Shown here in pieces: positions 1,308-13,909 of a stretch of DNA of 15,774 bases. The notes under the pieces were generated by a model. That model saw nothing but the letters and a program-made list of their open reading frames with translations. It made no database searches and was not told the DNA's origin. Position 1 is the first letter of the stretch. Every line of letters begins with the position of its first letter. Position numbers and translations under genes: made by a program. Origin of the DNA: Acidobacteriota bacterium (lineage in GTDB: Bacteria > Acidobacteriota > UBA6911 > JACQSX01); contig DASXQR010000094.1 in assembly GCA_036507075.1 (NCBI GenBank), forward strand, positions 1 through 15,774, given 5' to 3'.

Positions 1308-1584
1308 ACATTGCTCCCAGACAGCTATTGTAGCTGATGCGACTGCCAAGTCGACCACGGACGGGAACGTTGTGAAAACCTACGCCGACGGGTTTGGAAG
1401 CAGCGAAAAGATCAAAAAGCCGGAACCGCGAAGGCGCGAATCGATGACTGGCAAAAAAAAATGCATAGGCAGGCTGTGGATTTTTTTGTGGAAATTTTTC
1501 TGATGAGCCCGCCCGCGCTGAACAAGAGAGCCGATCGTGTTGTGCTGCGATCGAGTGCATCGCAAAAAATCTTGATTTTCGATG

Positions 1585-1612
1585 TTGACTGCTTTGCGCA
1601 ATCAAGTAGAAT
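1585..1612 (+). promoter_or_regulatory. Sigma70-type promoter for the structured ncRNA candidate
   Basis: TTGACT (1585-1590), 16 bp, TAGAAT (1607-1612). The predicted TSS at ~1619-1620 coincides with the first base of the RNA closing stem. A/T-rich tracts lie upstream. Confidence 0.75.
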
Positions 1613-1618
1613 CCCCCT

Positions 1619-1872
1619 TGTCCCAAGAGGTAGATGCGATTCGCGGCAACGGTTGTCCTGAATGGGATCCGCACATGGTCGGTCTGGAAACGGATTGATT
1701 AAATGTGTGGATAAGCCGTTCAGGGCACATAAGGTGACGCGAGCCTGAGCGACGGTTGTCCCGGGCTAAACCTGCTTCGGTGTCCGGACCCGAAAGGGTT
1801 CGGTTGCCAAGAAGGAGGCGGTAGTTCGGGGCACGTAAGTCGCAATGGATCGAGTGTCGATCACTTGGGACA
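1619..1872 (+). ncRNA. Highly structured ~254-nt non-coding RNA of unrecognised family with internal two-fold pseudo-symmetry
   Basis: Closing stem TGTCCCAAG/CTTGGGACA. Stem 1635-1641/1838-1844. Arm 1 has three stacked helices (1655-1665/1716-1726, 1667-1676/1703-1712, 1677-1686/1691-1700) capped by GAAA. Arm 2 has helices 1758-1768/1822-1832 and 1784-1791/1796-1803, also capped by GAAA. Hairpin 1848-1862. Many G-U pairs work only on the + strand. Promoter upstream, T-rich tail downstream, no credible ORF. Confidence 0.8.
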
Positions 1873-1940
1873 TTTTCGTTTCCGGGATCACTTTTCTAAC
1901 CAACGGCACGATGTGCCTGCCTGCGGCAATTTCCAAAAAT

Positions 1941-2176: not shown

Positions 2177-3805
2177 TCAGTTACCGCCATTCCCGCCGGC
2201 CATGGCGGCGGGGCCAGGAATCAGCAACTGAAAGAAGTTGGAGTTTTCAAATTCGTAGGACGCCTGAAGGCATTCTTCGAAGAGATGCACCCTGTCACGC
2301 TGGAAAAGTTGGACCAGGTAGTCGGTGATGCGCAACTCAGCCGGCGTGAGACGGCGGCGCAGCGTGGATCGCAGGGCGATGATTCGATCCGTGCATGTGT
2401 CCAAATCGTGGATCTTCCCCATCAATTTCTGAAAATCCTGGAGCTTTTCTAATTCCGTTTCGAAATTACGACTGCCGACCGACTCAAAAATCTCAAGTGT
2501 GTAACGAAGTTTCTTGCAACTGACGCGCAGGCGATGAAACTCTTCACGATCCAGCGGATTGCGCGCTGATTCAAGCCGGCTTCGCGCTTTGGTGGCCATT
2601 TGCTTCAATAGCCGGCGGGTGTTGGCGTAAGTCCCTTCCGAGGGGTCGACGCCGGCCTGCTTCACCGGCCGCTTGCGAATATGATAGTCCAGCGTGTCCT
2701 GAAGCTCGTCGAACAACCGATTCTGACGCGACTGATGCAGCGCGCGCGCCAGCCTGCTTTGCGCCGATTCACGCTCGTTCGCAATCTCATCCATCAAAAC
2801 CGGAAAGCCGGCGGACTCGGTTTGCTGCAATTTACGGTACGCAGAGAGCTGGTCAAGAAGCACGTCCAACTCGCGCAATTCACCGGCATGCATGCGAATC
2901 TTTCTGATTTCCTGCAGGTGAAGACGTCCGGTCGGGTAATAAGCCGAAAACGTGAGCAGCGCGTGCAGCAGCTTCATGGCGGAAATCCGAAGGAGCCTGA
3001 CATTGCTTGATTTCAAGTCATTCTCCGCTTCCTCGAACGCCTTCATGAACGTCCGCAGCAGCGATCGCTGCGCTGAAATTACCTGGCGCCGGAACATCTG
3101 CGGCGAATCCCGCAGTGCCGAGAAAGAGGTGATCACGCTTTCTTCATCCATCGGAAAGTTCCGATCCACCGCGGCGCGAAACAGCCGCTCGCGGGGGTAA
3201 GGCACGTCTTCGATACTGGCCTGGACCTTTCCGTTGCTGATCGACAGGACGGCGTACTGAGCGTGGCCGGTTCCGTTGAGGTGCTTGCCCACAGCGCCGC
3301 AGTTGATAACCCAGCCGTTCTTGAGCCGTCGCACAAAAGACTCGTGGCTGTGCCCGCAAATCAGAATCTGGCAATCGGTCTCCGAGAGCATTTCCTCCAA
3401 TTCCTTTGGCTTTCTCTGCGGCGTGATGTATTCCATTTCACTGAAGGGGCTTCCGTGCACAATCAGAATTTTTTTCCCTCCGATTTGGACTTGGCGGCGA
3501 GCGGGAAGCTTCTCGAGCTGGCTGAGATCGGAAAGGGTGAGACGTTTCAGGGTCCACCTGGCGAGCGGTTCACGTTCTTTTTTTCGCTCTCCGCGGGCTC
3601 TCAAGACCTTGAGATCGGAATTTCCACGGATGGATGTGACTCTGTGCTTTCTCAGCAATCGAAGAACTTCGCCCGGAAAAGGGCCGTCACCCACCAGATC
3701 TCCCGCGCAGTAGATCCGCCGGATCTTCCGTTTTCGGATGTCTTCCAGGACGCACTGCAACGCGGGCAGGTTGGCGTGGACATCGGAAATCAGCGCTATT
3801 CGCAT
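2177..3805 (-). CDS. Metallophosphoesterase (YfcE/MJ0936-like, calcineurin-like fold) fused to a C-terminal CHAD (polyphosphate-binding) domain
   Basis: N-terminal motifs SDVHAN, GDLVG, GNSD, VHGSP, GHSH, NCGAVG. C-terminal CHAD motifs GELRELDV, FHRLRVSCKKLRYTLE, LMGKIHDLD. Start taken at MRIALISD (3805), the typical family N-terminus. Confidence 0.88.
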   Translation of the reverse strand: MRIALISDVHANLPALQCVLEDIRKRKIRRIYCAGDLVGDGPFPGEVLRLLRKHRVTSIRGNSDLKVLRARGERKKEREPLARWTLKRLTLSDLSQLEKLPARRQVQIGGKKILIVHGSPFSEMEYITPQRKPKELEEMLSETDCQILICGHSHESFVRRLKNGWVINCGAVGKHLNGTGHAQYAVLSISNGKVQASIEDVPYPRERLFRAAVDRNFPMDEESVITSFSALRDSPQMFRRQVISAQRSLLRTFMKAFEEAENDLKSSNVRLLRISAMKLLHALLTFSAYYPTGRLHLQEIRKIRMHAGELRELDVLLDQLSAYRKLQQTESAGFPVLMDEIANERESAQSRLARALHQSRQNRLFDELQDTLDYHIRKRPVKQAGVDPSEGTYANTRRLLKQMATKARSRLESARNPLDREEFHRLRVSCKKLRYTLEIFESVGSRNFETELEKLQDFQKLMGKIHDLDTCTDRIIALRSTLRRRLTPAELRITDYLVQLFQRDRVHLFEECLQASYEFENSNFFQLLIPGPAAMAGGNGGN

Positions 3806-3860
3806 TAACTTAATATAGCGCAGTTTCGGCGCTCGGGGGCAGGGGCGCCGAGTCAACAAA

Positions 3861-4171
3861 CGGTTACGGGCTGACGAGTTGTGAGTTACGGGTTGGCGAG
3901 TTGGCGGGTTGGCGGGTTACGAGTTGACGGGTTACGAGTTGACGAGTTACGGGTTGACGAGTTGACGATACGGGTTGGCGAGTTGACGAGTCGGCGAAAT
4001 TCAAGACTCCAAACTGGAGAATGTTACATTTTCAATCCTTTTGCCGGCCGAACTCTGCATTTTCAGTTGGGATTTTCACTTCTTTAGTTCGGCGTACGCT
4101 TATTTTCACGACAGCAAAAACCTGTAACCCGTAACCCGCAAACCTGTAACCCGTAATCCGAAAACCCGTAA
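3861..4171. repeat. Inverted microsatellite arms: mixed 7/8-mers GRGTTAC/GRGTTGRC (3861-3996) and (GTAACCC/GAAAACCC)n (4119-4171) around an AT-rich core
   Basis: Read directly. Same family as 11941-12287. Confidence 0.88.
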
Positions 4172-4183
4172 TTTATTTCGCGC

Positions 4184-4921
4184 CTATTTCGTCGCCGTCA
4201 GGCTGAGGGAAAGCACGCTGAAGTCGTCGGTTTTATACGCGTCGTATTCAAATTCCTGAAGAATCCGGATGTCGCGAAATCCCGCCCCGGACAGCTTTGC
4301 AAGATAGACCTCGCGGTTCAGCGCGCCCGAGATACAATCTGCCCACAGTCTCGGGTCGCCGTGCTCCAGATCTTCAGAAGTGCCGCGCGTGACAATATCG
4401 GAGATCTGCAGGCGTCCCGATGGCCTCAGAACCCGGTAAGCTTCCGCAAAAACCCTGTCTTTATCGGGCGCAAGATTAATTACGCAGTTGGAAAGAATGA
4501 CATCAATCGAGTTTTCTTCAACCGGGAGATTCTCAATGTCCCCCAGACGAAACTCCACATTGTTAATGCCGGCGCGTCTGGCGTTTTCTCGCGCCTTGGA
4601 CACCATGGCTTCAGTCATGTCGACACCAATCACACGGCCGGCTGGGCCCACCTTGCGGGCTGCGAGAAAAACGTCAATTCCCGCGCCCGCTCCAAGATCA
4701 AGGACTACCATGCCCGGATCGAGGGCGGCCAACTCGGTCGGGTTGCCGCACCCGACATTCAGGTTGGCCTGGTCTGGAATAGACACAAGCTGCTCGTAGC
4801 TGTATCCCATTCCGACGGGCGAACAAACCTGCTGATCTCCTGTGCCGCAACAACCACCCGAACGCGCCAGGTTGCCATACTTCTCTTTCACGATTTGCTT
4901 GAGTTCACTTGCCGATTTCAT
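4184..4921 (-). CDS. arsM: Arsenite S-adenosylmethionine methyltransferase
   Basis: VKEKYG...GCCG N-terminus, NLNVGCGNP, SAM motif VLDLGAGAGID, VIGVDMT, LSNCVINL, WADCISGA (conserved ArsM cysteines). ATG at 4921 has a GAGG SD and overlaps the arsR stop (ATGA). Confidence 0.9.
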   Translation of the reverse strand: MKSASELKQIVKEKYGNLARSGGCCGTGDQQVCSPVGMGYSYEQLVSIPDQANLNVGCGNPTELAALDPGMVVLDLGAGAGIDVFLAARKVGPAGRVIGVDMTEAMVSKARENARRAGINNVEFRLGDIENLPVEENSIDVILSNCVINLAPDKDRVFAEAYRVLRPSGRLQISDIVTRGTSEDLEHGDPRLWADCISGALNREVYLAKLSGAGFRDIRILQEFEYDAYKTDDFSVLSLSLTATK

Positions 4922-5265
4922 GGTTTTCCTCGTGTGAAATGATTCGGGGCAACCGCCGAGACCGGCACCACATCGGTCCGGCCGCAGCACTCCGAAAACA
5001 GGAAGCGGAGCATGTCTGTAAGAGTGTCTTGGTCGACGGAATACCAGATCCACTGTTTCTCTTTGTGTGCCTTGAGAAGACCGACTTGTTTTAGTTTCTC
5101 CAGATGATGGTTGAGCGTCGATCCCGGAATTTTCAACTCCTGCTGGATCTGTCCCACTTTCAACCCCCCCAAATGAAAAGCGGAGAGCAGCAGTCTGACA
5201 ATTTCCAGACGCGAACCGTTTCCGAGTGCCTGGAACAAGTTTGAGTAATGCTCTACCTGGGGCAT
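4918..5265 (-). CDS. arsR: ArsR/SmtB family metalloregulator with C-terminal Cys-Cys (AfArsR-type As(III) site)
   Basis: FQALGNGSRLEIVRLL, HTH region VGQIQQELKIPGSTLNHHLEKLKQVGLL, C-terminal FLFSECCG. Translationally coupled to arsM. Confidence 0.88.
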   Translation of the reverse strand: MPQVEHYSNLFQALGNGSRLEIVRLLLSAFHLGGLKVGQIQQELKIPGSTLNHHLEKLKQVGLLKAHKEKQWIWYSVDQDTLTDMLRFLFSECCGRTDVVPVSAVAPNHFTRGKP

Positions 5266-5272
5266 ATTTCTA

Positions 5273-5294
5273 TATTTCTACATTTATCGAAATA
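5273..5294. promoter_or_regulatory. Probable ArsR operator (imperfect palindrome)
   Basis: TATTTC-TACATTTATC-GAAATA lies immediately upstream of the arsR start codon in an AT-rich patch. A TTGCAT -35-like hexamer abuts it on the - strand (5295-5300). Confidence 0.6.
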
Positions 5295-5372
5295 ATGCAA
5301 TAGGTTTCTTGCAGGGGGAAAACTTTGGAACCGCCCGGTGGCGTCGATTTTTTCACACGCTCTGTGGAGGGC

Positions 5373-5405
5373 AAAAAAAAGAGACGCGTTGCCGCGTCTC
5401 TTTTT
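5373..5405 (-). terminator. Intrinsic terminator (bidirectional-looking) downstream of the phosphatase gene
   Basis: A8-GAGACGCG-TTGC-CGCGTCTC-T5: perfect 8-bp stem with U8 on the - strand and U5 on the + strand. Confidence 0.85.
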
Positions 5406-5426
5406 GGGAAAGATTGTTACAGGAGC

Positions 5427-6029
5427 TTACTTCTGGCTGGCAACCGCTCCGGAGGCGATTCCGCTGGCAGCCGCTCGGTTGTGGCTGTTGTAGAAGTCGT
5501 ACACGTAGTCTTTGTACCCGCCATGGCCCCAGCTCGTGTAAAACCCGTAGTCCTTCATTTCGTTGTAAGCCTGGTCGATGTTCCAGCCGTCAGTTGTCAT
5601 GCGATAGACTGCCGTCATGGCGCCGGTGCGATGCCGCCCTCCGGCACAGTGCACAAAGATGGGCCAATTCTTCTGGTCTTGCGCCACGGACAGGAACTTT
5701 TGGACCTGCTCGTCGTAGGGCCGTTCGTGGTCATCCATGGGGATGTTAATGTAGTTGAGACCCAGCGATTTCACAGCGGACTGTTCATCGCGCCGATCTC
5801 CGTCCTGCAAATCAATCACAGTGCGAATGCCCAAACGTTGAAGGTCGGCGAAACCCTCTTGCTTTGGCTGTGCTCCCCGGAAGTAGTGATCATTTACCTT
5901 TCCAAAATTCTTAATGCCGACGCCGCCGGATGATTTTGCCCCCAGTGACAGGCTGAACAGTAAATTTAAGACTGCAAAAATTGCAATGGATGAGACGCGG
6001 ATCTTCGTTTGTTGTAAATTTTTCAACAT
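5427..6029 (-). CDS. Secreted Cys-based protein-tyrosine/dual-specificity phosphatase, PFA-DSP/Siw14-like
   Basis: P-loop VHCAGGRHRTG (CX5R), NFGKVNDHYFRGAQP, LGIRTVIDL. Hydrophobic N-terminus ending SLGA suggests a signal peptide. ATG at 6029 is preceded by a purine-rich SD. Confidence 0.85.
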   Translation of the reverse strand: MLKNLQQTKIRVSSIAIFAVLNLLFSLSLGAKSSGGVGIKNFGKVNDHYFRGAQPKQEGFADLQRLGIRTVIDLQDGDRRDEQSAVKSLGLNYINIPMDDHERPYDEQVQKFLSVAQDQKNWPIFVHCAGGRHRTGAMTAVYRMTTDGWNIDQAYNEMKDYGFYTSWGHGGYKDYVYDFYNSHNRAAASGIASGAVASQK

Positions 6030-6152
6030 TCCCTTTTGCCCCTTGGACTCGTGTGGATTTGGCTGGCCTGTAGACAACTTACAACAAATAGGACGCATAC
6101 GGAATGAAAAAGTTTGACATTATTTCAGCCCGGAATTGAATCTTTTTCCTAG

Positions 6153-6276
6153 CCACAAAGCCACAAAGGCACAAAGGCTACAACTTCAGCTATCAGTGAT
6201 ATTTATCGTTAATCGCGGCCGCTGTGTCACTTTTTACTATAATACTTTAATACTTTGTGCCTTTGTGGCTTTGTGG
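6153..6276. repeat. Perfect 24-bp inverted repeat of CACAAAG-type units around an AT-rich spacer
   Basis: CCACAAAGCCACAAAGGCACAAAG (6153-6176) is the exact reverse complement of 6253-6276. Same family as 13927-14081. Confidence 0.92.
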
Positions 6277-6282
6277 TTGAGT

Positions 6283-7182
6283 TCACGCCACCGATTCTTC
6301 TTGTTTCTCTTCTGATTTTTTCTCTTTTTCCAGTTCCTTCTTGCCGCTTTCTGTCTTCGCCCAGTCGGCTTCGAAAACGGCGATCACACGCTTTACAATC
6401 TTCGGATCCCTGACGATCAATCCCGCCTCACGCCGGTCATCCAATTCAACTTTTCGCAGGCTTTGGCTTCCGATAAACACTTGCCGGCCGTCGCGTACGA
6501 TAGTTCGCGTATGCAGTCGTTTCCCCGGAAACTTCTCAACCGCCACTCCTGCGCCGCGCTTCCCAAGCTTCCCGATTACCTTGATTTCGACGCCCGCCTT
6601 TACCCGCGCCCGCAGAACTGAAATCATGCGCGCATCGGTTAATTTCGGATCGTAAATAAGCAGCTGCCTGCGCGCTCCCGCCAGAAACTGGGAAAGCCGC
6701 GGCCTTGAGTTTTCCGGGCTGACAACAAAATCCTTCGCGCCACTCACGTAAGGCTGGCGCAGCGTGTCGGCCTGAAGCAATTTCAGGGCTTCTTCTACCA
6801 GCTTGCGATTCCGGGTCACGACCCCGAAGCTGCGACTATGATCGATATCCAGGTGGGTGAAATTGAATCCAAGAAGGTGCAGCTCGCGACCGTCAATGAT
6901 CAGGATCTTGTCATGGTAGCGGCTGAAATTATCAGCCGTGCGCGTAACAGTCACTCCGGCTTCCAACAATGCCAGTGCCACCTTGCGCAGCTTCTTTCCG
7001 TCGCCATTGGTGTGCGCGATTAAAGCGTGCACCAGCACGCCTCTGCCCACGGCCGCCTTCAGCGCTTTCTCAATGGCGTCATAATCGAAACGGAAAATGG
7101 CTATCTCAATGCTCTTGCGGGCATGATTGACAGCGGAAAGCAGCGGCGCAACTCCATCTTCCGGTTGAACCCGTAAATTCAT
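6283..7182 (-). CDS. Phospholipase D superfamily protein with two PLD-like domains
   Basis: H90-x-K92-x4-D97 (YHDKILIID) and a variant H224-x-R226-x4-D231 (LHTRTIVRD). Typical PLD segments ARKSIEIAIF, AAVGRGVLV, IGSQSL, RREAGLIV. Lys/Glu-rich tail. Confidence 0.85.
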   Translation of the reverse strand: MNLRVQPEDGVAPLLSAVNHARKSIEIAIFRFDYDAIEKALKAAVGRGVLVHALIAHTNGDGKKLRKVALALLEAGVTVTRTADNFSRYHDKILIIDGRELHLLGFNFTHLDIDHSRSFGVVTRNRKLVEEALKLLQADTLRQPYVSGAKDFVVSPENSRPRLSQFLAGARRQLLIYDPKLTDARMISVLRARVKAGVEIKVIGKLGKRGAGVAVEKFPGKRLHTRTIVRDGRQVFIGSQSLRKVELDDRREAGLIVRDPKIVKRVIAVFEADWAKTESGKKELEKEKKSEEKQEESVA

Positions 7183-7305
7183 AGTTGCGACAGAGACACG
7201 TGAAACCGCCTGCCGGCAGTGATCCTTCTGTGAGGGCGGAACTTTCCCGGTGCGGCGGCAATTTCCGCCACCCCTTGAGAATCAAAGAACTTAAACACTG
7301 TAATG

Positions 7306-7334
7306 AAGGTATTCCCGATGGGAGTGTAAGTCAA
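7306..7334 (-). promoter_or_regulatory. Candidate sigma70 promoter for the PLD-family gene
   Basis: On the - strand: TTGACT (7334-7329), 17 bp, TACCTT (7311-7306). Confidence 0.5.
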
Positions 7335-7488
7335 CCCGAAATGGCACTAAGTACTGGGAAATCTGCGGTTCGGGCCAGCCGCAAAGACCAGAGCAATTTT
7401 GGGTTTCGCGCCCTCGCGCCCTCGCGGTGGATTTTTTCCCACCGTCTTACCACAGCTCCGCGCATACGCGGCCAATCCTTCACCTTAA

Positions 7489-7497
7489 TGCTAGAAT
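7489..7497 (+). promoter_or_regulatory. Candidate extended -10 promoter for ppx-ppk1
   Basis: TG-C-TAGAAT about 55 nt upstream of the ppx ATG. Confidence 0.45.
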
Positions 7498-7550
7498 GAG
7501 AGTGAAGGAGAACTTCATCAGCAGCCCCGGTCACATCGCAGTTCCCCGTT

Positions 7551-9113
7551 ATGCCGGATTCTGACAACAACACTAACTCGGTTATCGCGGCGATCGACGT
7601 AGGCTCGAGCGCCATCCGCATGGCCATCGCCCAGTGGGATGCCTCCGGTCGATTTGAGGAACTGGAGAACCTGTCTCGCGGCGTTGCTCTCGGGAAAGAT
7701 GTGTTCACGGACGGACACATCAGCGAACAGTGCATCCAGGCTGCCTGTGAAACACTGCGCGGCTTCCGAAAAACGATGGACACGTACGGCGTGCAGAAGT
7801 ACCGGGCGGTGGCCACCAGCGCCGCCCGGGAAGCAGTCAACACGGATACGTTTGTGGACCGGGTTTTCATGCGCACCGGCATTGAAGTTGAGGTGATCGA
7901 CGGGCCCGAAGAAAACCGGCTCACCTATTTGGCCGTGGCCGACATTCTCAAGGACGAAATGCGGAAGGGAAACAAGGAGACGCTGCTGGTGGAAGTGGGC
8001 GGAGGGAGCGCCGATATTTCCTTTATCCGAAACGGAGGGCCGGTGCATGCGGGAACTTACCCGCTGGGTGCCCTGCGACTGCGCCAGTCACTGGCCGGAG
8101 TTGACCGTGGTCCGGGCCATCGGGTGGCGGCACTGGATCGATACATCCACACCACACTGGAGACGATGAAGCGGTCCATTCCATTCGAAAAAGTCTCGGA
8201 AGTGATCGCCGTAGGGGGCGACGTTCGCTTCACCGCCCGGCAGCTTGAGGGCGCAGCCAAGCATCTGTATTCAATCCCGCGGTCGGACTTCCTGCAGTTT
8301 TGCGATCAGATTTCCCGGTACGACGAGGATCAGTTGGTCAAGCAGTATCACATTTCATATGTAGAGGCGGAAACACTGGTTCCCGCGTTGCGCGTATACA
8401 AGCAGTTGCTGGAAAAGACGGCGGCCGAAACGGTGATGATTCCCACTGCCAATATCCGCAGAGGCATGCTGCTGGACTTGATCTGCAGTTCAGGACAGGG
8501 GAACATCGAAGAGCTTTCCAGGGAAATCCTCAGCTCGGCGCGCGAAGTGGCGCGCAAGTACCAGACCGATCTGAATCATGTCGACAATGTTGCTTCCCTT
8601 TCGGCGCAGATGTTCGACCAGTTGCGACAGGATCACGGTCTGGACGGGCATGCCCGCATGCTGCTGCAGGCTGCGGCACTGCTGCACGACATCGGGCTGT
8701 TCGTGAATTCCCGTGAACACCATAAGCATTCACAATATTTGATCGGCTCTTCCGAGATTTTCGGCCTGAGCGCACGCGACGCTGAGATTGTCGGCAACAT
8801 TGCCCGTTATCATCGACGCGCCATGCCTCAGCGAAGCCATCCCAGCTACCAAAATCTGGAAGCGGCTGAAAGGATGGAGGTATGCAAGCTGGCTGCTATT
8901 CTCAAAATCGCCAATGCGCTGGATAAGGACCACACTCAGAAGGTTCAGCGGCTGGAATTGGAGCATCAGGATTCCGAAATCGTGCTCAAAGCGCATACCC
9001 GCTCCGACACCGACCTGGCGCTGGAGCAGGTGACGCTGCAGAAGAAGGCCGATCTGTTCGAAGAAATCTATGGCAAACGAGTCACTTTACAGCAGATTCC
9101 CGGCGCCGATTGA
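7551..9113 (+). CDS. ppx: Ppx/GppA family exopolyphosphatase with C-terminal HD-like domain
   Basis: AAIDVGSSAIRM, AVATSAAREAVN, IDGPEENRLTY, VEVGGGSAD, LGALRL, ALLHDIG, HHKHSQYLI, IARYHRR. Directly upstream of ppk1. Confidence 0.93.
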   Translation: MPDSDNNTNSVIAAIDVGSSAIRMAIAQWDASGRFEELENLSRGVALGKDVFTDGHISEQCIQAACETLRGFRKTMDTYGVQKYRAVATSAAREAVNTDTFVDRVFMRTGIEVEVIDGPEENRLTYLAVADILKDEMRKGNKETLLVEVGGGSADISFIRNGGPVHAGTYPLGALRLRQSLAGVDRGPGHRVAALDRYIHTTLETMKRSIPFEKVSEVIAVGGDVRFTARQLEGAAKHLYSIPRSDFLQFCDQISRYDEDQLVKQYHISYVEAETLVPALRVYKQLLEKTAAETVMIPTANIRRGMLLDLICSSGQGNIEELSREILSSAREVARKYQTDLNHVDNVASLSAQMFDQLRQDHGLDGHARMLLQAAALLHDIGLFVNSREHHKHSQYLIGSSEIFGLSARDAEIVGNIARYHRRAMPQRSHPSYQNLEAAERMEVCKLAAILKIANALDKDHTQKVQRLELEHQDSEIVLKAHTRSDTDLALEQVTLQKKADLFEEIYGKRVTLQQIPGAD

Positions 9114-11211
9114 AACTCCTCCCCCGGAATTGCTGATCAACCGCGAGTTGAGTCTTCTGGAATTCAACCGCCGCGTCTGGCGGGAAGGCATGGATCCGGA
9201 AACGCCGCTGCTGGAGCGCCTGCGATTTCTTTCCATCGTGCTTTCAAATCTGGACCAGTTTTTTTTGGTGCGCGTGGCCCGGCTCAAAACCCAGAGCCTG
9301 GCCAACGAGTCAAGCCATTGTCCGACCGGGATCTCGAATGCAGATTTGTTGGACGCCATATCGGGCAAGGCGCACGACCTGGTTAATGACGTGTACGAAA
9401 GTTTTGCCGGGCTGGTTTCCGATCTGCGACAGGCCGGTATTGCCCTGGTTTCATTGGATGAGTTGGATGAAGAAGCCCACGCAGTGCTGGACGAAAAATT
9501 TGAGTCGGAGATTTTTCCCGCGCTCACGCCGCTGGCGGTAAAGCAGAAACGGCCCTTTCCGCTGTTGTTCAACCTTTCGTTGAATCTGGCAGTCCGCCTG
9601 CAGCTGCGGGACGGCGGAAGGCGCCTGGCGGTGGTTCAGGTTCCGGCCACCCTGCCGAGGCTGATCGAGATTCACGCCGGCAAAGGATCGCAAAAGACAT
9701 TCGTGCTGCTCGAAGAAGTCGTTGCGCGCAATGTGAGCCGGCTGTTTCTTGGATATAAGGTCCTGGAAACAAGGATGTTTCGCATTACGCGCGACGCCGA
9801 CTATGAGCTTGATGACGAGGGCGCGGAAAATTTTATCCACGCCGTGGAAGAACAACTCAGGAGACGGAGAATCAACGAGCCGGTCAGGCTGGAATTGCAG
9901 TCTCCGGCGAGCCCCTCGCTGACGCGGCTGCTTCAGAAGTCGCTGCGTCTCACGGACGCCGATATTTATCCTGTTCGGTGCCCGCTCGATTTGCGAGGTT
10001 TGTTGACGCTGTGCGATCTGCCCGGGTTTGACACCCTGAGATATCCGCTCATGCCGCCGGTGGGAATGATCGCCCCCATTGACAGGCAGGATTTGTTTGC
10101 CCTGGCAGCACGAGAGGACCTGTTATTCCATCATCCGTACGAGTCCTTTGAACCGGTGGTGGAATTGGTTCGCCAGGCCAGCGTCGATTCCAAAGTGCTG
10201 GCAATCAAGCAGACGCTCTACCGCACAAGCGGCGACTCTCCCATCGTGCGGGCTCTGGAAGCCGCCGCTCTCAATGGAAAGCAAGTCACGGTGCTGGTGG
10301 AATTGACCGCCCGCTTTGACGAAGAAAGAAACATAAGCTGGGCTCGCAAGCTGGAAACCGCCGGAGCTCACGTTATCTATGGCCTGGAGGGATTTAAGAC
10401 TCACGCCAAGATTCTGCTGATCGTACGTCGAGAACCACAGGGGATTCGCCGCTACGTGCATCTGAGCACCGGCAACTATAATGACCGGACTGCCCGGCTT
10501 TATACCGACATGGGCCTGCTCACGTCGCGCGAGGACATTGGTTCGGATGCTTCGGGTTTTTTTAACGCGATCACCGGTTTCAGCGATCCTCCCAGTTACC
10601 AGAAACTCGCCATGGCTCCCCTGGGACTGCGCGAAAGGATTATCTCCCTGATCGAGCGTGAATCCGTGCGGGCGCGCGAAGGTCAGCAAAGCCTGATTCG
10701 CGCCAAAATGAATTCTCTGATCGACCTTCCTCTTGTGATGGCGTTGTGTGAGGCGGCGCGCGCGGGCGTGAACATACAATTGTGCGTGCGCGGGGTTTGC
10801 ATGCTCCGGCCGGGACTGCCGGACTTCTCCGGAAACCTGAAGATCTTCAGCATTATTGATCGTTTTCTGGAGCATAGCCGTGTTTTCCACTTTTACAATG
10901 GCGGCAGCGATGAGGTGTACCTCAGCAGCGCAGATTGGATGCCGCGCAATCTGGATCGGCGAATCGAGCTGATGTTCCCGGTTGACTGTCGCGCGGCGCG
11001 CCGTAAGGTGCTGCAGGCCCTCGACATCATATTCAGTGACAATACAAAAGCCTGGGATTTGCAGACTGACGGCAGTTACGCGAAGCGCAGTCCCGCGACC
11101 GATGAACCACCGATTCGCTCTCAATATAAGCTTTATGAAGCGGCGCTGCGCCAGTTAGAGCAGCAGCTTCAGGAGGCGCATTTCCAATTAAGGCCGATCG
11201 AGGCTCGGTAG
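9070..11211 (+). CDS. ppk1: Polyphosphate kinase 1
   Basis: INRELSLLEFNRRV, LLERLRFLSI, DLLFHHPYESF, IKQTLYRTS, ELTARFDEERNI, KTHAKILL (phospho-His region), HLSTGNYN, RFLEHSR, SSADWMPRNLDRRIE. Overlaps the ppx 3' end by 44 bp. Confidence 0.97.
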   Translation: MANESLYSRFPAPIETPPPELLINRELSLLEFNRRVWREGMDPETPLLERLRFLSIVLSNLDQFFLVRVARLKTQSLANESSHCPTGISNADLLDAISGKAHDLVNDVYESFAGLVSDLRQAGIALVSLDELDEEAHAVLDEKFESEIFPALTPLAVKQKRPFPLLFNLSLNLAVRLQLRDGGRRLAVVQVPATLPRLIEIHAGKGSQKTFVLLEEVVARNVSRLFLGYKVLETRMFRITRDADYELDDEGAENFIHAVEEQLRRRRINEPVRLELQSPASPSLTRLLQKSLRLTDADIYPVRCPLDLRGLLTLCDLPGFDTLRYPLMPPVGMIAPIDRQDLFALAAREDLLFHHPYESFEPVVELVRQASVDSKVLAIKQTLYRTSGDSPIVRALEAAALNGKQVTVLVELTARFDEERNISWARKLETAGAHVIYGLEGFKTHAKILLIVRREPQGIRRYVHLSTGNYNDRTARLYTDMGLLTSREDIGSDASGFFNAITGFSDPPSYQKLAMAPLGLRERIISLIERESVRAREGQQSLIRAKMNSLIDLPLVMALCEAARAGVNIQLCVRGVCMLRPGLPDFSGNLKIFSIIDRFLEHSRVFHFYNGGSDEVYLSSADWMPRNLDRRIELMFPVDCRAARRKVLQALDIIFSDNTKAWDLQTDGSYAKRSPATDEPPIRSQYKLYEAALRQLEQQLQEAHFQLRPIEAR

Positions 11212-11332
11212 GCGGATTATTTTTGATTTCGCGCTTTCGCGTCTTCGCGGTGAATTTGTTCACTCCTCTGAGGTGCGGGAACACCAACGGGGCTTGCCGC
11301 GGCCTAAAACGCCCGTACTTAAGGGGGACCCC

Positions 11333-11938
11333 ATGATTCTTTGTTTTGTACGTCACGCCATTGCTGCTGATCGGCAATCGTGGAAGGAAGACGACGAAAA
11401 GCGACCTCTGACCGCCGAAGGGGTTAAGAAAATGAAAAGGGTTGCAGATGCGCTTTCTCTGATGGGCGGGGATTTTACCTATATCTGCACCAGTCCGCTG
11501 AGGCGCGCCAGGCAAACCGCAAAAATCCTGTCGCGAAAATCGGAGCATTCCGCCGAGACGCTGATATGGAGTGAACTCGTGCCGGGAAGTCCGCCCCAGG
11601 ACCTGCTAAACAAGCTTCAGGTGCTCTCCCGGAAACGCCAAGCCAAACCGGCTAAATCCGGGTCCGCATCCAGACGTGTTGCGCCCGGCAAATCTCAGAA
11701 GGCTTCCAATGACCGCCGGCCGGCCGTTTCCGGCAACTCGGCCCAAATCGCACTGGTGGGCCACGAACCGCACCTCAGTCAGACGGTTTCTTACCTCCTG
11801 TGCGGAGATGCTCATAAAATGTCAATTGCATTCAAGAAGTCAGGGGTCTGTTGTCTGGAATACAACGGAAAGATTCCAGCCACGCTTCGCTGGTTTCTGC
11901 CTCCCCGAATGGCAGCAAGCATAGCGAAACGCAGTTGA
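11333..11938 (+). CDS. sixA: SixA-type phosphohistidine phosphatase (histidine phosphatase superfamily)
   Basis: FVRHA, DEKRPLTAEG, TSPLRRARQTA, LVGHEPHLS. ATG at 11333 follows an AAGGGGGA SD. Contains a basic low-complexity insertion. Confidence 0.85.
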   Translation: MILCFVRHAIAADRQSWKEDDEKRPLTAEGVKKMKRVADALSLMGGDFTYICTSPLRRARQTAKILSRKSEHSAETLIWSELVPGSPPQDLLNKLQVLSRKRQAKPAKSGSASRRVAPGKSQKASNDRRPAVSGNSAQIALVGHEPHLSQTVSYLLCGDAHKMSIAFKKSGVCCLEYNGKIPATLRWFLPPRMAASIAKRS

Positions 11939-11940
11939 GA

Positions 11941-12287
11941 TCCGGGTTCCGGGTTTTCGAGTTGCGGGTTGCGAACTGTGCTGTTGAGAAGATGGTCTAT
12001 TCCAAAGTAAACCTGAAAATCCCAAATTGAAAATTCCCGCCGACGACAGGGATGTTGGATAATGTCTTTTCCAATAGAGATATCTGATAATACGCTTTCC
12101 AGCTTTGAATTTTGAATTCGCCCGGATTATTGATAAAGCTTCACCGCGAAGACCGTCCTTGCCGCTCTCTTGGCGTTCTTGGCGGTCTTCGCGGTTAGGT
12201 TTTTTGTGAATAATCCGGGCTAGTAACTCGTAACCTGTATCCCGAAAACCCGTAACCCGAAAACCCGAAAACCCGAAAACCGGTAAC
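11941..12287. repeat. Multiply nested inverted-repeat element
   Basis: Outer arms (CGGGTT..)n 11941-11973 and (..AACCCG)n 12223-12287. Perfect 12-bp IR at 12120-12131/12209-12220 and perfect 13-bp IR at 12143-12155/12183-12195. Confidence 0.85.
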
Positions 12288-12292
12288 TTCTT

Positions 12293-12910
12293 ATGGCTCT
12301 AATCAAAATGTTCCAACGCGATGAAAAATTCACGGAAGTCTTTCGCTCCATGACTTCCAATCTCACCAGCGCCAGCGAATTGCTGGAAAAATTTCTGGCG
12401 GAGCCGACAAACATCCAGCTTAGAGACCAGATCAAAGATCACGAGCATCGGGGAGATCTGCTGGTCAAAGAAGTAATTCTAAAACTGGATGTCACCTTCA
12501 TTACGCCGTTTGATCGGGAAGATATCCACGAACTGGCGGGAATCATTGACGACGTTCTCGATCTGGTGCATCGCGCGACGGCCAAGATCACGATGTATGG
12601 CATCCGCAGCGTGGTCCCGGGTACCAGGGAGCTGGCGCACATTCTGACCGAGCAGACCAGAGACCTGGAATCCGCGGTAGTAAACCTGAAAAATTACAGC
12701 GAAGTGCTGCGGCTTTGCGAGCATGTCAGTGAACTTGAGAAACAGGGTGATGCCCTTTATTCCCGCAGCATCTGCTCGATATTCGAAAATGTCAAAGATC
12801 CAATTGAACTGATCAAGCTGAAGGAAGTCATCGAGACGGTCGAATCGGCTCTCAACCGCAGTCAGGACGTGGGGGACGTGCTCGAATCTATCGTCATCAA
12901 GAACACCTAG
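12293..12910 (+). CDS. DUF47 / PhoU-like phosphate transport regulator (Pit accessory protein)
   Basis: IKDHEHRGD, TFITPFDREDIHELA, LEKQGD, IELIKLKEVIETVE. Immediately upstream of pit. Confidence 0.92.
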   Translation: MALIKMFQRDEKFTEVFRSMTSNLTSASELLEKFLAEPTNIQLRDQIKDHEHRGDLLVKEVILKLDVTFITPFDREDIHELAGIIDDVLDLVHRATAKITMYGIRSVVPGTRELAHILTEQTRDLESAVVNLKNYSEVLRLCEHVSELEKQGDALYSRSICSIFENVKDPIELIKLKEVIETVESALNRSQDVGDVLESIVIKNT

Positions 12911-12916
12911 ACGCCG

Positions 12917-13909
12917 ATGCTGCTCTACTACGTGATCTTCATCGTCATAGTGGCGCTGGTGTTTGATTTTCTCAACGGCTTCCATGACGCGGCCAATTCG
13001 ATCGCTACCATCGTTTCCACGCGCGTGCTCACTCCGCTGCAGGCGGTGATTTGGGCTGCTTTCTTCAACTTTGTGGCGGCGTTTGTCTTTGGCACCGCCG
13101 TAGCCAAGACTCTCTACAAGGGTCTTATCGATATCCGCCAGGTGAATGAAACGGTGATCTTATGCGGCCTGATCGGGGCCATCCTGTGGAACATCATTAC
13201 CTGGTATTTCGGACTTCCGACCAGCAGCTCCCACGCGCTGATTGGGGGGTACGCCGGAGCGGCGGTCGTGCGTGCCGGCTGGTCTGTGCTCATATTGAAG
13301 GGCTGGTATCCCACGCTGGAGGGCATCGTGCTGGCGCCGCTCATCGGACTGGCGCTCGGCTTCCTTTTCATATTTATCACCTACGGCGTGGTGAAGAGAT
13401 CGCGCCCTCGCAGAATAGATCAGATCTTCAGAAAGCTTCAGTTGATTTCGGCCGCTCTGTACAGCCTGGGACACGGCACAAACGACGCTCAAAAAACCAT
13501 GGGAATCATTGCAGGCGTTCTGTTTTCGGCCGGCTATTTGACGCGAAGCGAAATTCCGTTTTGGGTGATTCTGATTTGTCATGCCGCGATGGGACTGGGA
13601 ACATTCTTCGGAGGTTGGCGCATCGTAAAAACCATGGGCCAGAAGATCGTCAAGCTGCGTCCTATCGGTGGTTTTTGCGCTGAGGCGGCCGGCGCCATAA
13701 CCATAATGAATGCCGCTCATATCGGAGTTCCCGTCAGCACCACCCATGTCATTACCGGATCAATCGTGGGCGTGGGGTCCATTCATGGACTGTCTGCTGT
13801 GAAATGGGGAGTAGCCGGAAGAATTGTCTGGGCCTGGATCATCACCATCCCTGCTTCCGCGTCCGTGGCTGCAATTTCTTATCTTGTGATCAGTTTATTC
13901 ATTCAATAG
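12917..13909 (+). CDS. pit: Inorganic phosphate transporter, PiT family
   Basis: FDFLNGFHDAANSIAT, GLPTSSSHALIGG, HGTNDAQKTMG, GGWRIVKTMG, GVPVSTTH, WIITIP. Multiple hydrophobic segments. Confidence 0.96.
   Translation: MLLYYVIFIVIVALVFDFLNGFHDAANSIATIVSTRVLTPLQAVIWAAFFNFVAAFVFGTAVAKTLYKGLIDIRQVNETVILCGLIGAILWNIITWYFGLPTSSSHALIGGYAGAAVVRAGWSVLILKGWYPTLEGIVLAPLIGLALGFLFIFITYGVVKRSRPRRIDQIFRKLQLISAALYSLGHGTNDAQKTMGIIAGVLFSAGYLTRSEIPFWVILICHAAMGLGTFFGGWRIVKTMGQKIVKLRPIGGFCAEAAGAITIMNAAHIGVPVSTTHVITGSIVGVGSIHGLSAVKWGVAGRIVWAWIITIPASASVAAISYLVISLFIQ

What the first reader, a model, noticed from the sequence alone, without database searches (positions are those of the whole stretch)
1619..1872. 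Stand-alone ~254-nt structured ncRNA candidate with its own promoter, not matching a family I recognise
Seen: nearly the whole segment folds. It has a 9-bp closing stem joining the exact 5' and 3' ends, a second stem (1635-1641/1838-1844), two long coaxial arms (1655-1726, 1758-1832) each capped by a GAAA (GNRA) tetraloop, a small hairpin (1732-1746) and a 3' hairpin (1848-1862). The helices contain many G-U pairs, which indicates selection on RNA of the + strand rather than on DNA palindromy. A TTGACT-N16-TAGAAT promoter places the TSS at the first paired base, and a T-rich tract follows the last. Both flanking genes are on the - strand, so it is not their 5' leader. Known: it lacks the hallmarks of tmRNA, RNase P, SRP and tRNA, and is branched rather than a 6S-type rod. 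Inference: an independently transcribed, possibly undescribed ncRNA class.
Basis: partly seen in the sequence, partly recalled or inferred. Interest (0 to 1): 0.88.

Follow-up and report, generated by a model that had tools for sequence, protein, structure and literature searches.

The report
DnaA-box-preceded RNA family with fixed ends
This is a real gene for a tightly folded non-coding RNA, a short member of a family found across one class of uncultured Acidobacteriota and matching no catalogued RNA family, whose members keep an almost unchanging end-to-end helix and a promoter with binding sites of the replication initiator DnaA while their middle part varies fivefold in length.

Summary
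Real. 1620-1871(+) folds far beyond chance (z -10; minus strand -4) and has no Rfam match. Homologues keep the fold with compensatory changes: a long closing helix and a three-way junction with two duplicated arms, each carrying the same internal loop.

The RNA belongs to a wider family: 37 complete copies, 119-658 nt, from 27 genomes (9 families of one Acidobacteriota class) plus one metagenome contig. All share a terminal helix GUCCCAAG-R-GGU/RUC-R-CUUGGGAC and a U-rich tail. Most share a sigma70 promoter, a 17-bp palindrome at -76 (31/37) and DnaA boxes near -144 (32/37). In five near-complete genomes the gene lies 103-151 kb from dnaA. It was not found in 274 genomes outside the class. It is not 6S, SRP, tmRNA, RNase P, Y RNA or a leader.

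Best reading (0.5): a DnaA-controlled, trans-acting RNA whose terminal helix docks a protein. Transcription, partner and function are untested. This scan noted a similar Acidobacteriota RNA before (e1-6900400, identity untested), and DnaA-box-preceded RNAs in other phyla.

The parts
1475..1495 (+). Head-to-tail pair of DnaA-box-like 9-mers (1475-1483, 2 mismatches; 1487-1495, 1 mismatch to TGTGNAWAA), at -145/-133 from G1620
   Evidence: Same pair at -143 to -145 in 7 of 7 close copies. A similar pair lies upstream of dnaA in G000 and G001. A TGTG-core box starts at -147..-142 in 32 of 37 members. The consensus is recalled; binding is not shown.
1543..1559 (+). 17-bp palindromic site (family consensus TGCAC-N7-GTGCA, the length and core of an NtrC box), centred near -69; candidate activator site
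   Evidence: At most 2 mismatches at -84..-69 in 31 of 37 members, background 0.5%. In G000, 3 of 38 such 17-mers have TTGAC 23-27 nt downstream, and all 3 precede a copy of the RNA (0.19 expected).
1564..1579 (+). A/T tracts upstream of -35 (UP-element-like)
   Evidence: Sequence; similar tracts in homologues; role inferred.
1585..1612 (+). sigma70-type promoter TTGACT-N16-TAGAAT
   Evidence: TTGAC at -35/-34 in 9 of 9 copies in this family. TAnnnT 6-7 nt before the first G in 33 of 37 members (some members were selected by that pattern).
1620..1871 (+). The ncRNA (252 nt from G1620; 254 with the U1619-A1872 pair)
1619..1637 (+). 5' strand of the terminal helix: 1619-1627 pairs with 1864-1872, A1628.A1863 mismatch, 1629-1637 pairs with 1854-1862
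   Evidence: Pair 9 is purine.purine in 37 of 37; pair 13 is A-U in 20 and G-C in 13 of 37.
1640..1743 (+). Arm 1: basal helix 1640-1647/1736-1743, conserved internal loop C1650-GGU / CAUAA-G1733, helix 1654-1665/1716-1727, GAAA cap 1687-1690
1750..1842 (+). Arm 2, a duplicate of arm 1: basal helix 1750-1753/1839-1842, internal loop C1753-GGU / CGUAA-G1839, helix 1757-1763/1827-1833, GAAA cap 1792-1795
   Evidence: The motif YRGNUGY...GCACNUAAG occurs in 14 of 14 arms, with 79-91 nt between motif ends.
1854..1872 (+). 3' strand of the terminal helix (…UCACUUGGGAC-A)
1873..1881 (+). U-rich tail (TTTTCGTTT), probable termination site behind the closing helix
   Evidence: Sequence; T-rich flank in the members listed (required by the pattern for those found). 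Not called by the terminator scan, which needs a short loop.

Best explanation
A stand-alone, trans-acting stable RNA that works as part of an RNA-protein particle. A sigma70 promoter, tuned by DnaA bound at about -145 and by a dimeric activator at about -69, makes the transcript. Its 5' and 3' ends zip into a helix of nearly fixed sequence (8 bp, purine-purine mismatch, G-C/G-U/U-A, then usually tandem purine mismatches) that is the docking site of one dedicated protein. The body is a compact, roughly 70% paired, tetraloop-capped scaffold that is free to change. In this family it has been rebuilt as two copies of one arm, each offering the same internal loop, probably to a dimeric or twice-bound protein. 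The RNA would hold or titrate its partner in step with DnaA activity, that is with growth and replication state. Shown: gene anatomy, conservation, covariation, promoter elements, independence from neighbours. Inferred: transcription, DnaA control, protein docking, decoy or scaffold action.
For: The ends were found without being asked for. A promoter-only pattern led to three f13 loci that carried both ends. Of 22 loci found by the 3' pattern alone and examined, 19 had the exact 5' partner and 1 a variant, against 1 of 120 chance viral hits. Helix positions outside the patterns covary (pair 13: A-U 20, G-C 13) or stay purine-purine. Interiors of different subtypes give background local-alignment scores yet all fold (z -3.4 to -10.2), and 74 of 220 predicted hairpin loops are UUCG. 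Copies run to 2-3 per genome in f1 and f13, with no shared neighbour gene. A perfect TGTGNAWAA box lies upstream in 31 of 37 members against 1.2% of random windows. In two 400-kb stretches around dnaA the RNA promoter holds the only pair of perfect boxes 12 bp apart.
Against: No expression data and no partner found. Invariance of the positions inside the search patterns is circular for the members found by them. Sequence-invariant pairs show no covariation. The covariation test rests on 5 related sequences and a structure derived from them. In 2 of 9 f13/f17 members the antisense strand scored lower than the sense strand (15 shuffles), and 1 of 10 further members tied. Family f6 (0 of 51 with the 3' pattern) keeps the DNA cassette without the RNA, so the cassette has a role of its own and the RNA is dispensable there or has diverged. 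The window's own boxes are imperfect.
Confidence: 0.5

Rival explanations
1. The RNA acts directly in the DnaA cycle or in initiation control, as the output of a feedback loop in which DnaA sets the RNA level and the RNA with its partner restrains or reactivates DnaA or the origin.
For: DnaA boxes at a fixed place. The gene lies 103-151 kb from dnaA in 5 of 5 few-contig genomes from 4 families. RNA-less lineages keep the cassette with two opposed boxes 5 bp apart in 12 of 12 cases, the geometry given for DARS boxes I/II (PMC6868365, passages), whereas RNA promoters show an opposed box in 7 of 37, always 3 bp apart. Unchecked scan notes report DnaA-box-preceded RNAs in other phyla.
Against: DnaA regulates many genes unrelated to initiation (own knowledge). 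Distance to dnaA may be inherited. The RNAs do not carry DnaA-box sequences (1 perfect in 15,531 nt). No functional test.
Confidence: 0.2
2. The DNA cassette (a DARS- or datA-like DnaA-binding locus) is the working part. Transcription next to it matters, for supercoiling or clearing proteins, and the RNA folds only to be released cleanly.
For: The cassette persists without RNA in f6 and G005; G127 keeps a relic promoter and CCAAGAGGT without a 3' end. Interiors are hypervariable.
Against: A fixed terminal helix with a conserved mismatch, a conserved loop motif in 14 of 14 arms including a 58-67% identical paralogue, and alignable blocks across families are not needed for mere transcription. 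One copy (G025z) keeps the RNA without the cassette.
Confidence: 0.1
3. A self-assembling RNA-only scaffold in the manner of GOLLD, ROOL or OLE, with the GNRA caps docking into the internal loops of another molecule.
For: Large, ornate, many tetraloops. The loop CRGNU/ACNUAAG recalls an 11-nt tetraloop receptor (recalled). Such homo-oligomers exist (PMC12286853, start of abstract only).
Against: The b-type paralogues cap arm 2 with UUCG, not GNRA. The loop motif is absent from the 120-nt forms and from f13/f17. Fivefold length change is hard to fit to a fixed cage.
Confidence: 0.08
4. A selfish or mobile element (MITE with terminal inverted repeats, or a panhandle template for a reverse transcriptase or RNA replicase).
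For: Complementary ends, variable interior, several copies, one copy near a tRNA and an integrase-like ORF.
Against: No target-site duplication in the flanks. The promoter 150 nt outside the repeats travels with the copies. Orthologous copies are syntenic across genera. One RT-like ORF by motif in G000. No member in phage or plasmid collections.
Confidence: 0.05
5. A tandem-aptamer riboswitch or leader of a neighbouring gene.
For: Two identical internal loops, as in tandem aptamers; S58 peptidase lies downstream on the same strand in G002 and one G001 copy.
Against: In this genome the RNA is inverted between the same genes. Other copies face convergent genes. The U-tail follows the closing helix directly and there is no expression platform.
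Confidence: 0.03

Closest known systems
Y RNAs (bacterial Yrn1/YrlA/YrlB, with Ro60/Rsr)
   Same: Design logic: 5' and 3' ends pair into a conserved protein-binding stem with a U-rich tail, a more variable interior, 2-4 copies. This is what the RNA may work like.
   Different: No TROVE/Ro60 in 10 of 10 genomes searched, 9 of them RNA-bearing. No GNCGAAN0-1G motif and no tRNA-like domain (features from PMC4201824, passages). Length 119-658 nt against 80-130.
Orphan large bacterial ncRNAs (raiA motif, OLE, GOLLD, ROOL)
   Same: Stand-alone, large, ornate, own promoter, function unclear.
   Different: No Rfam match to any of them. Here only the ends and promoter are fixed while the body is rebuilt between families.
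6S RNA (RF00013) and Ms1-type RNA-polymerase-binding RNAs
   Same: Closing stem of paired ends, sigma70 promoter, possible protein titration.
   Different: Branched, no central bubble, no Rfam score; G000 has a separate 6S on C79 (81.6 bits). Ms1 comparison is recalled, not tested beyond Rfam.
Multi-copy sponge RNAs under one activator (CsrB/RsmY/RsmZ, GlmY; recalled)
   Same: Redundant copies, a dedicated upstream activator site, repeated binding motifs (in this family).
   Different: No repeated GGA loops among predicted hairpin loops; far more paired; DnaA boxes upstream.
E. coli DARS1/DARS2 (for the DNA cassette only)
   Same: Opposed DnaA boxes 5 bp apart followed by same-direction box-like sequence in the RNA-less cassettes (12 of 12; PMC6868365).
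   Different: RNA-linked promoters mostly lack that geometry (0 of 37 at 5 bp). ADP release not tested. IHF and Fis sites not examined.

Membership tests
Any Rfam 15 family | Score at or above gathering threshold, or a convincing E-value | tested here: not met
   0 at gathering in the window; best E 1.3 in 1500-2000; nothing on the RNA in 25 further loci.
Y RNA | Ro60/Rsr (TROVE) gene in the genome, usually within 4 kb | tested here: not met
   0 of 10 genomes (63-97% complete), control positive in 2 of 14.
Y RNA | GNCGAAN0-1G motif near the 5' end | tested here: not met
   5' end is GUCCCAAG-R-GGU in 36 of 37, GUCCCGAG in 1; motif from PMC4201824.
Y RNA (works like) | Terminal stem bound by a dedicated protein | not testable with these tools
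   Needs pull-down; conservation pattern fits.
6S RNA | Rod with central bubble matching RF00013 | tested here: not met
   Three-way junction; no match; separate 6S gene in G000.
6S RNA (works like) | Binds sigma70 RNA polymerase holoenzyme | not testable with these tools
   Needs binding assay.
SRP RNA, tmRNA, RNase P RNA | Family consensus; normally one gene per genome | tested here: not met
   No match; genome's own SRP on C222, tmRNA on C42, RNase P-like motif pair on C15.
Riboswitch or 5' leader | Consistent position upstream of, and on the strand of, one gene class | tested here: not met
   Inverted between CHAD and S58 genes in G000 versus G001; neighbours differ among copies.
MITE / non-autonomous transposon | Target-site duplication and a unit bounded by the inverted repeats | tested here: not met
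   No duplication in 9 of 9 flanks listed; conserved promoter lies outside the repeats.
Retron or RT-associated ncRNA | Reverse transcriptase gene next to the RNA | tested here: not met
   No RT among flanking ORFs inspected (others read by eye); one YADD-type ORF on another contig of G000.
Small protein gene | Conserved open frame | tested here: not met
   Every plus-strand frame has stops in 6 of 6 a-type copies; lengths differ by non-multiples of 3.
oriC (for the upstream cassette) | GC-skew switch at the locus | tested here: not met
   No switch at the RNA locus in 2 of 2 genomes; slope flattens near dnaA in G054, no switch at dnaA in G051.
DARS (for the upstream cassette) | Opposed boxes I/II 5 bp apart plus a same-direction box III | tested here: inconclusive
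   Boxes I/II geometry in 12 of 12 RNA-less cassettes, 0 of 37 RNA promoters, not in the window; activity untestable here.
NtrC-family site (for the 17-mer) | 17-bp TGCACCAnnnTGGTGCA-type palindrome | tested here: inconclusive
   Length and outer TGCAC/GTGCA match (PMC8743547, passages; logo); positions 6 and 12 differ, promoter is sigma70-type, the binding protein is unknown.

The most novel reading that the evidence does not exclude
The RNA is the Acidobacteriota form of an overlooked, widespread class of DnaA-controlled non-coding RNAs that take part in replication-initiation control. Only a short terminal helix, read by one partner protein, and the DnaA-box promoter are conserved, so sequence and covariance searches miss it. 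Lineages that lost the RNA kept the cassette as a DARS-like DNA element.
Probability: 0.2. Interest if true: 0.95.

Novelty: categorically new. Interest (0 to 1): 0.82.

Why it matters
Few classes of large bacterial ncRNA are known. This one has an unusual design: a fixed end helix and promoter around a body that varies from 119 to 658 nt and is unalignable between some subtypes, which explains why standard searches miss it (my own models reached only one family). The DnaA-box promoter, nearness to dnaA and the DARS-like cassette in RNA-less relatives make a direct, testable link between an RNA and the control of chromosome replication. The 252-nt form here, with two identical loops, and the 120-nt form are convenient minimal substrates for finding the partner. 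Searching by promoter and end patterns, not by body, is a reusable way to find such families.

Tried and rejected
Body-based searches stayed inside family f1: BLAST 4 of 41 genomes, model R1 4 of 137, arm model R2 1 of 151 in the phylum sample and no arm motif in f13/f17 or the short forms. Early end patterns gave false negatives: one search capped the length at about 290 nt, and demanded A at position 9, where most families have G. Arm-motif scans: genome contigs gave the 4 known loci plus one archaeal chance hit; metagenomes gave 5 loci, 1 true (L028); the 7 viral hits were judged chance. Viral end patterns gave 0, 1 of 120 with a short AT-rich partner and 3 without a partner. Plasmids gave one 41-nt fragment and phages none. 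Dropped as false: G070 L202 (no 3' partner), G116 L191 (promoter before an ORF), G001 L222, G002 L224 and G005 L037. G050's copy has a variant 5' end and G003's is cut by the contig start, so neither is among the 37; hits in G100, G101 and G050 C4 were not fetched. Sequencing runs: no RNA holder listed; DNA contigs gave no informative variants. Partner search: TROVE absent; an HTH_8 regex found nothing; 18 sigma54-activator-like ORFs were listed but none can be assigned. A model from all 7 long copies could not be calibrated in time. One helix test ('module2 base') and one ('arm2 base') were misregistered by one base and are ignored. DnaA-mimicry by the RNA: the TGTGGATAA at 1706-1714 is not conserved. 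Reading the 17-mer as two DnaA boxes: the right flank lacks the WAA bases. Co-directional transcription: 4 of 5 genes point away from dnaA, but the skew in G051 does not place the origin at dnaA, so no claim is made. Literature searches found no description; PMC11109978 has no 'Acido' in its main text, its supplements were not read, and most subscription papers are outside the library.

Full report
Observation. The segment folds at -132.2 kcal/mol, z -10.0, with 0 of 200 shuffles as stable; the minus strand gives z -4.05. The promoter TTGACT-N16-TAGAAT lies at 1585-1612. The neighbours are a minus-strand S58 peptidase (144-1358) and a minus-strand metallophosphoesterase-CHAD gene (2177-3859). 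Rfam gives nothing at gathering score in the window and nothing better than E 1.3 locally. Related records are titled Acidobacteriota/Acidobacteria MAGs.

Close homologues and the fold. BLAST found four copies in three of the four other genomes of the same family and a metagenome pattern scan one more, L028; these six 'a-type' RNAs are 70-87% identical. The consensus of five is a closing helix of about 18 bp broken by an A.A mismatch, then a three-way junction with two long arms. On that alignment 93.1% of cells pair and 20 pairs change on both sides, against 10.7 in shuffles (0 of 500). The caveat is five related sequences and a structure derived from them. L028, not used for the model, differs from its nearest relative at 20 paired positions: 6 both-sided and 11 one-sided changes keep the pair, 3 break it (alignment fitted to the model). 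The sense strand folds better than the antisense in 9 of 9 copies in this family. The 3' hairpin competes with the helix extension, which homologues favour. The arms are a tandem duplication: 14 of 14 arms carry YRGNUGY...GCACNUAAG, forming a C-G-closed RGN/CNUAA internal loop 79-91 nt across.

Paralogues. Model R1 found a divergent second copy in this genome (C77, 58 bits, z -5.5), with an orthologue beside the same oxidoreductase gene in G003. A third, 119-nt rod on C167 shares only the ends and the promoter, with an orthologue in G001. The a-type gene lies between CHAD and S58 genes in both G000 and G001 but in opposite orientation, which rules out a leader.

Promoter. All nine copies in this family have TTGAC at -35/-34, a 17-mer TGC-N9-GTGCA at -76 to -78 and a pair of DnaA-box-like 9-mers further up (positions from the first G). 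In G000 only 3 of 38 such 17-mers are followed by TTGAC at the right distance, all before RNA copies (0.19 expected). The strict box-pair pattern occurs five times in G000: the three RNA genes, the dnaA upstream region and one intergenic cluster (DnaA identity by Pfam for the G001 orthologue).

A class-wide family. A promoter-only pattern hit 8 of 137 class genomes, including 3 of 3 in family f13. Downstream lay 387-428-nt RNAs with the same ends and unrelated bodies. A 3'-end pattern hit 32 of 137 genomes (42 hits, control 3). That tally includes the unpublished G015, on which nothing else here rests. Of 22 of these loci examined, 19 had the 5' partner, 1 a variant and 2 were false. In all, 37 complete copies from 27 genomes in 9 families plus one metagenome contig were analysed, 119-658 nt, most 390-520. 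End-anchored pairs 1-8 and 10-12 pair in 37 of 37, pair 9 is always purine.purine, pair 11 always G.U, pair 13 is A-U in 20 and G-C in 13, and pairs 14-15 are mostly tandem purine mismatches. Positions 1-11 were largely fixed by the patterns for most members, so the independent evidence is the co-occurrence of both ends with the promoter and the behaviour of pairs 9 and 13-18. Large members of several families share alignable blocks at 47% mean column identity; other subtypes score at background against each other. All members tested fold (z -3.4 to -10.2). The sense strand scored lower in 7 of 9 and 9 of 10 large members, with few shuffles. Upstream, 31 of 37 have a perfect TGTGNAWAA (background 1.2%), 32 of 37 a TGTG-core box at -147..-142 and 31 of 37 the 17-mer within two mismatches (background 0.5%). 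Rfam gave nothing on the RNAs in 25 loci. The exact 3' pattern was not found in 274 sampled genomes outside the class, nor in f6 (0 of 51) or f10 (0 of 10); diverged ends would be missed.

The DnaA link. In five few-contig genomes from four families the gene lies 103, 119, 124, 131 and 151 kb from the best dnaA match; such a window is 5-9% of those genomes, though kin are not independent. GC skew does not switch at the RNA locus in G054 or G051, so the cassette is not oriC. In f6 a box-plus-palindrome pattern hit 34 of 51 genomes (a loose pattern with some chance hits). Among the 30 f6 loci fetched and one G005 locus, 12 held the full cassette, none with the RNA's 3' end, 9 beside lexA and 6 beside a DUF47 gene; all 12 had an opposed box exactly 5 bp upstream, which the pattern did not ask for. 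That is the spacing given for DARS boxes I and II (PMC6868365, passages read). G127 keeps a relic TTGAC...CCAAGAGGT, and the a-type gene sits beside the DUF47 gene in G002, G004 and L028. This suggests loss of the RNA at an ancestral locus (inference). The 17-mer has the length and core of the NtrC box (PMC8743547, passages) but its protein is unknown.

Mechanism. Shown: a conserved gene anatomy and an RNA-level structure. Inferred: the RNA is made (about 0.9), DnaA controls it (about 0.7), and the terminal helix is a protein site (about 0.6), because it is the one RNA feature common to all lengths and keeps non-canonical pairs. The body is then a scaffold or decoy, in this family presenting two identical loops. 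Whether the target is the DnaA cycle itself (0.2) or another growth-linked process is open.

Comparison. It resembles Y RNA in design but fails membership: no TROVE gene in 10 of 10 genomes and no GNCGAAN0-1G motif (PMC4201824, passages). It is not 6S, SRP or tmRNA, which the genome has elsewhere, and an RNase P-like sequence lies on C15. Literature searches found no description; PMC12286853, PMC12968392 and PMC2864571 were seen as listings only, and supplements of PMC11109978 were not read. The scan's notes hold no look-alike by sequence. They do hold an unchecked report of a 234-nt multi-copy Acidobacteriota RNA with DnaA boxes (e1-6900400), which may be this family, and seven of DnaA-box-preceded RNAs in Patescibacteria and Chloroflexota. 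These are leads, seen after my own analysis, and they shaped only the novel case.

Verdict. A real, undescribed ncRNA family with an unusual fixed-ends design and a DnaA-box promoter; function inferred only. Novelty: categorically new. Interest 0.82.

Noticed in passing
Not part of the RNA.
   Followed up: partly
window 2177-13909: Phosphate and polyphosphate cluster: metallophosphoesterase-CHAD, DSP phosphatase, PLD-like, Ppx/GppA, polyphosphate kinase, histidine phosphatase, DUF47 and PHO4 transporter, with an ArsR and a methyltransferase gene among them.
   Followed up: no
L257, L259-L261, L267, L268, L272, L273, L277-L279 (family f6) and L044 (G005): RNA-less DnaA-box cassette with DARS-like geometry (opposed boxes 5 bp apart in 12 of 12) plus the 17-bp palindrome, mostly downstream of lexA; a candidate DARS outside enterobacteria.
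   Followed up: partly
G000:C116 about 12264-12289; L040, L042, L049: A separate DnaA-box cluster between a peptidase-like gene and a transporter-like gene (read by eye), conserved in G001, G003 and G004, with no RNA ends seen behind it.
   Followed up: no
L206:1022-1511 (-) (G025): A copy closely related to G025's other x-type RNA but with a roughly 100-nt structured insertion and an unrelated promoter lacking both the boxes and the palindrome.
   Followed up: partly
L272 (G127): Relic TTGAC...TAAAAA...CCAAGAGGT at the expected distance behind the cassette, without a 3' end: possibly a decayed RNA gene.
   Followed up: partly
window 1706-1714: A perfect DnaA box sequence inside arm 1; the only perfect one in 15,531 nt of family RNAs, so probably chance.
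   Followed up: yes
G050 contigs C1, C3, C4: Seven Bac_DnaA_C matches in one genome against one in each of four others.
   Followed up: no
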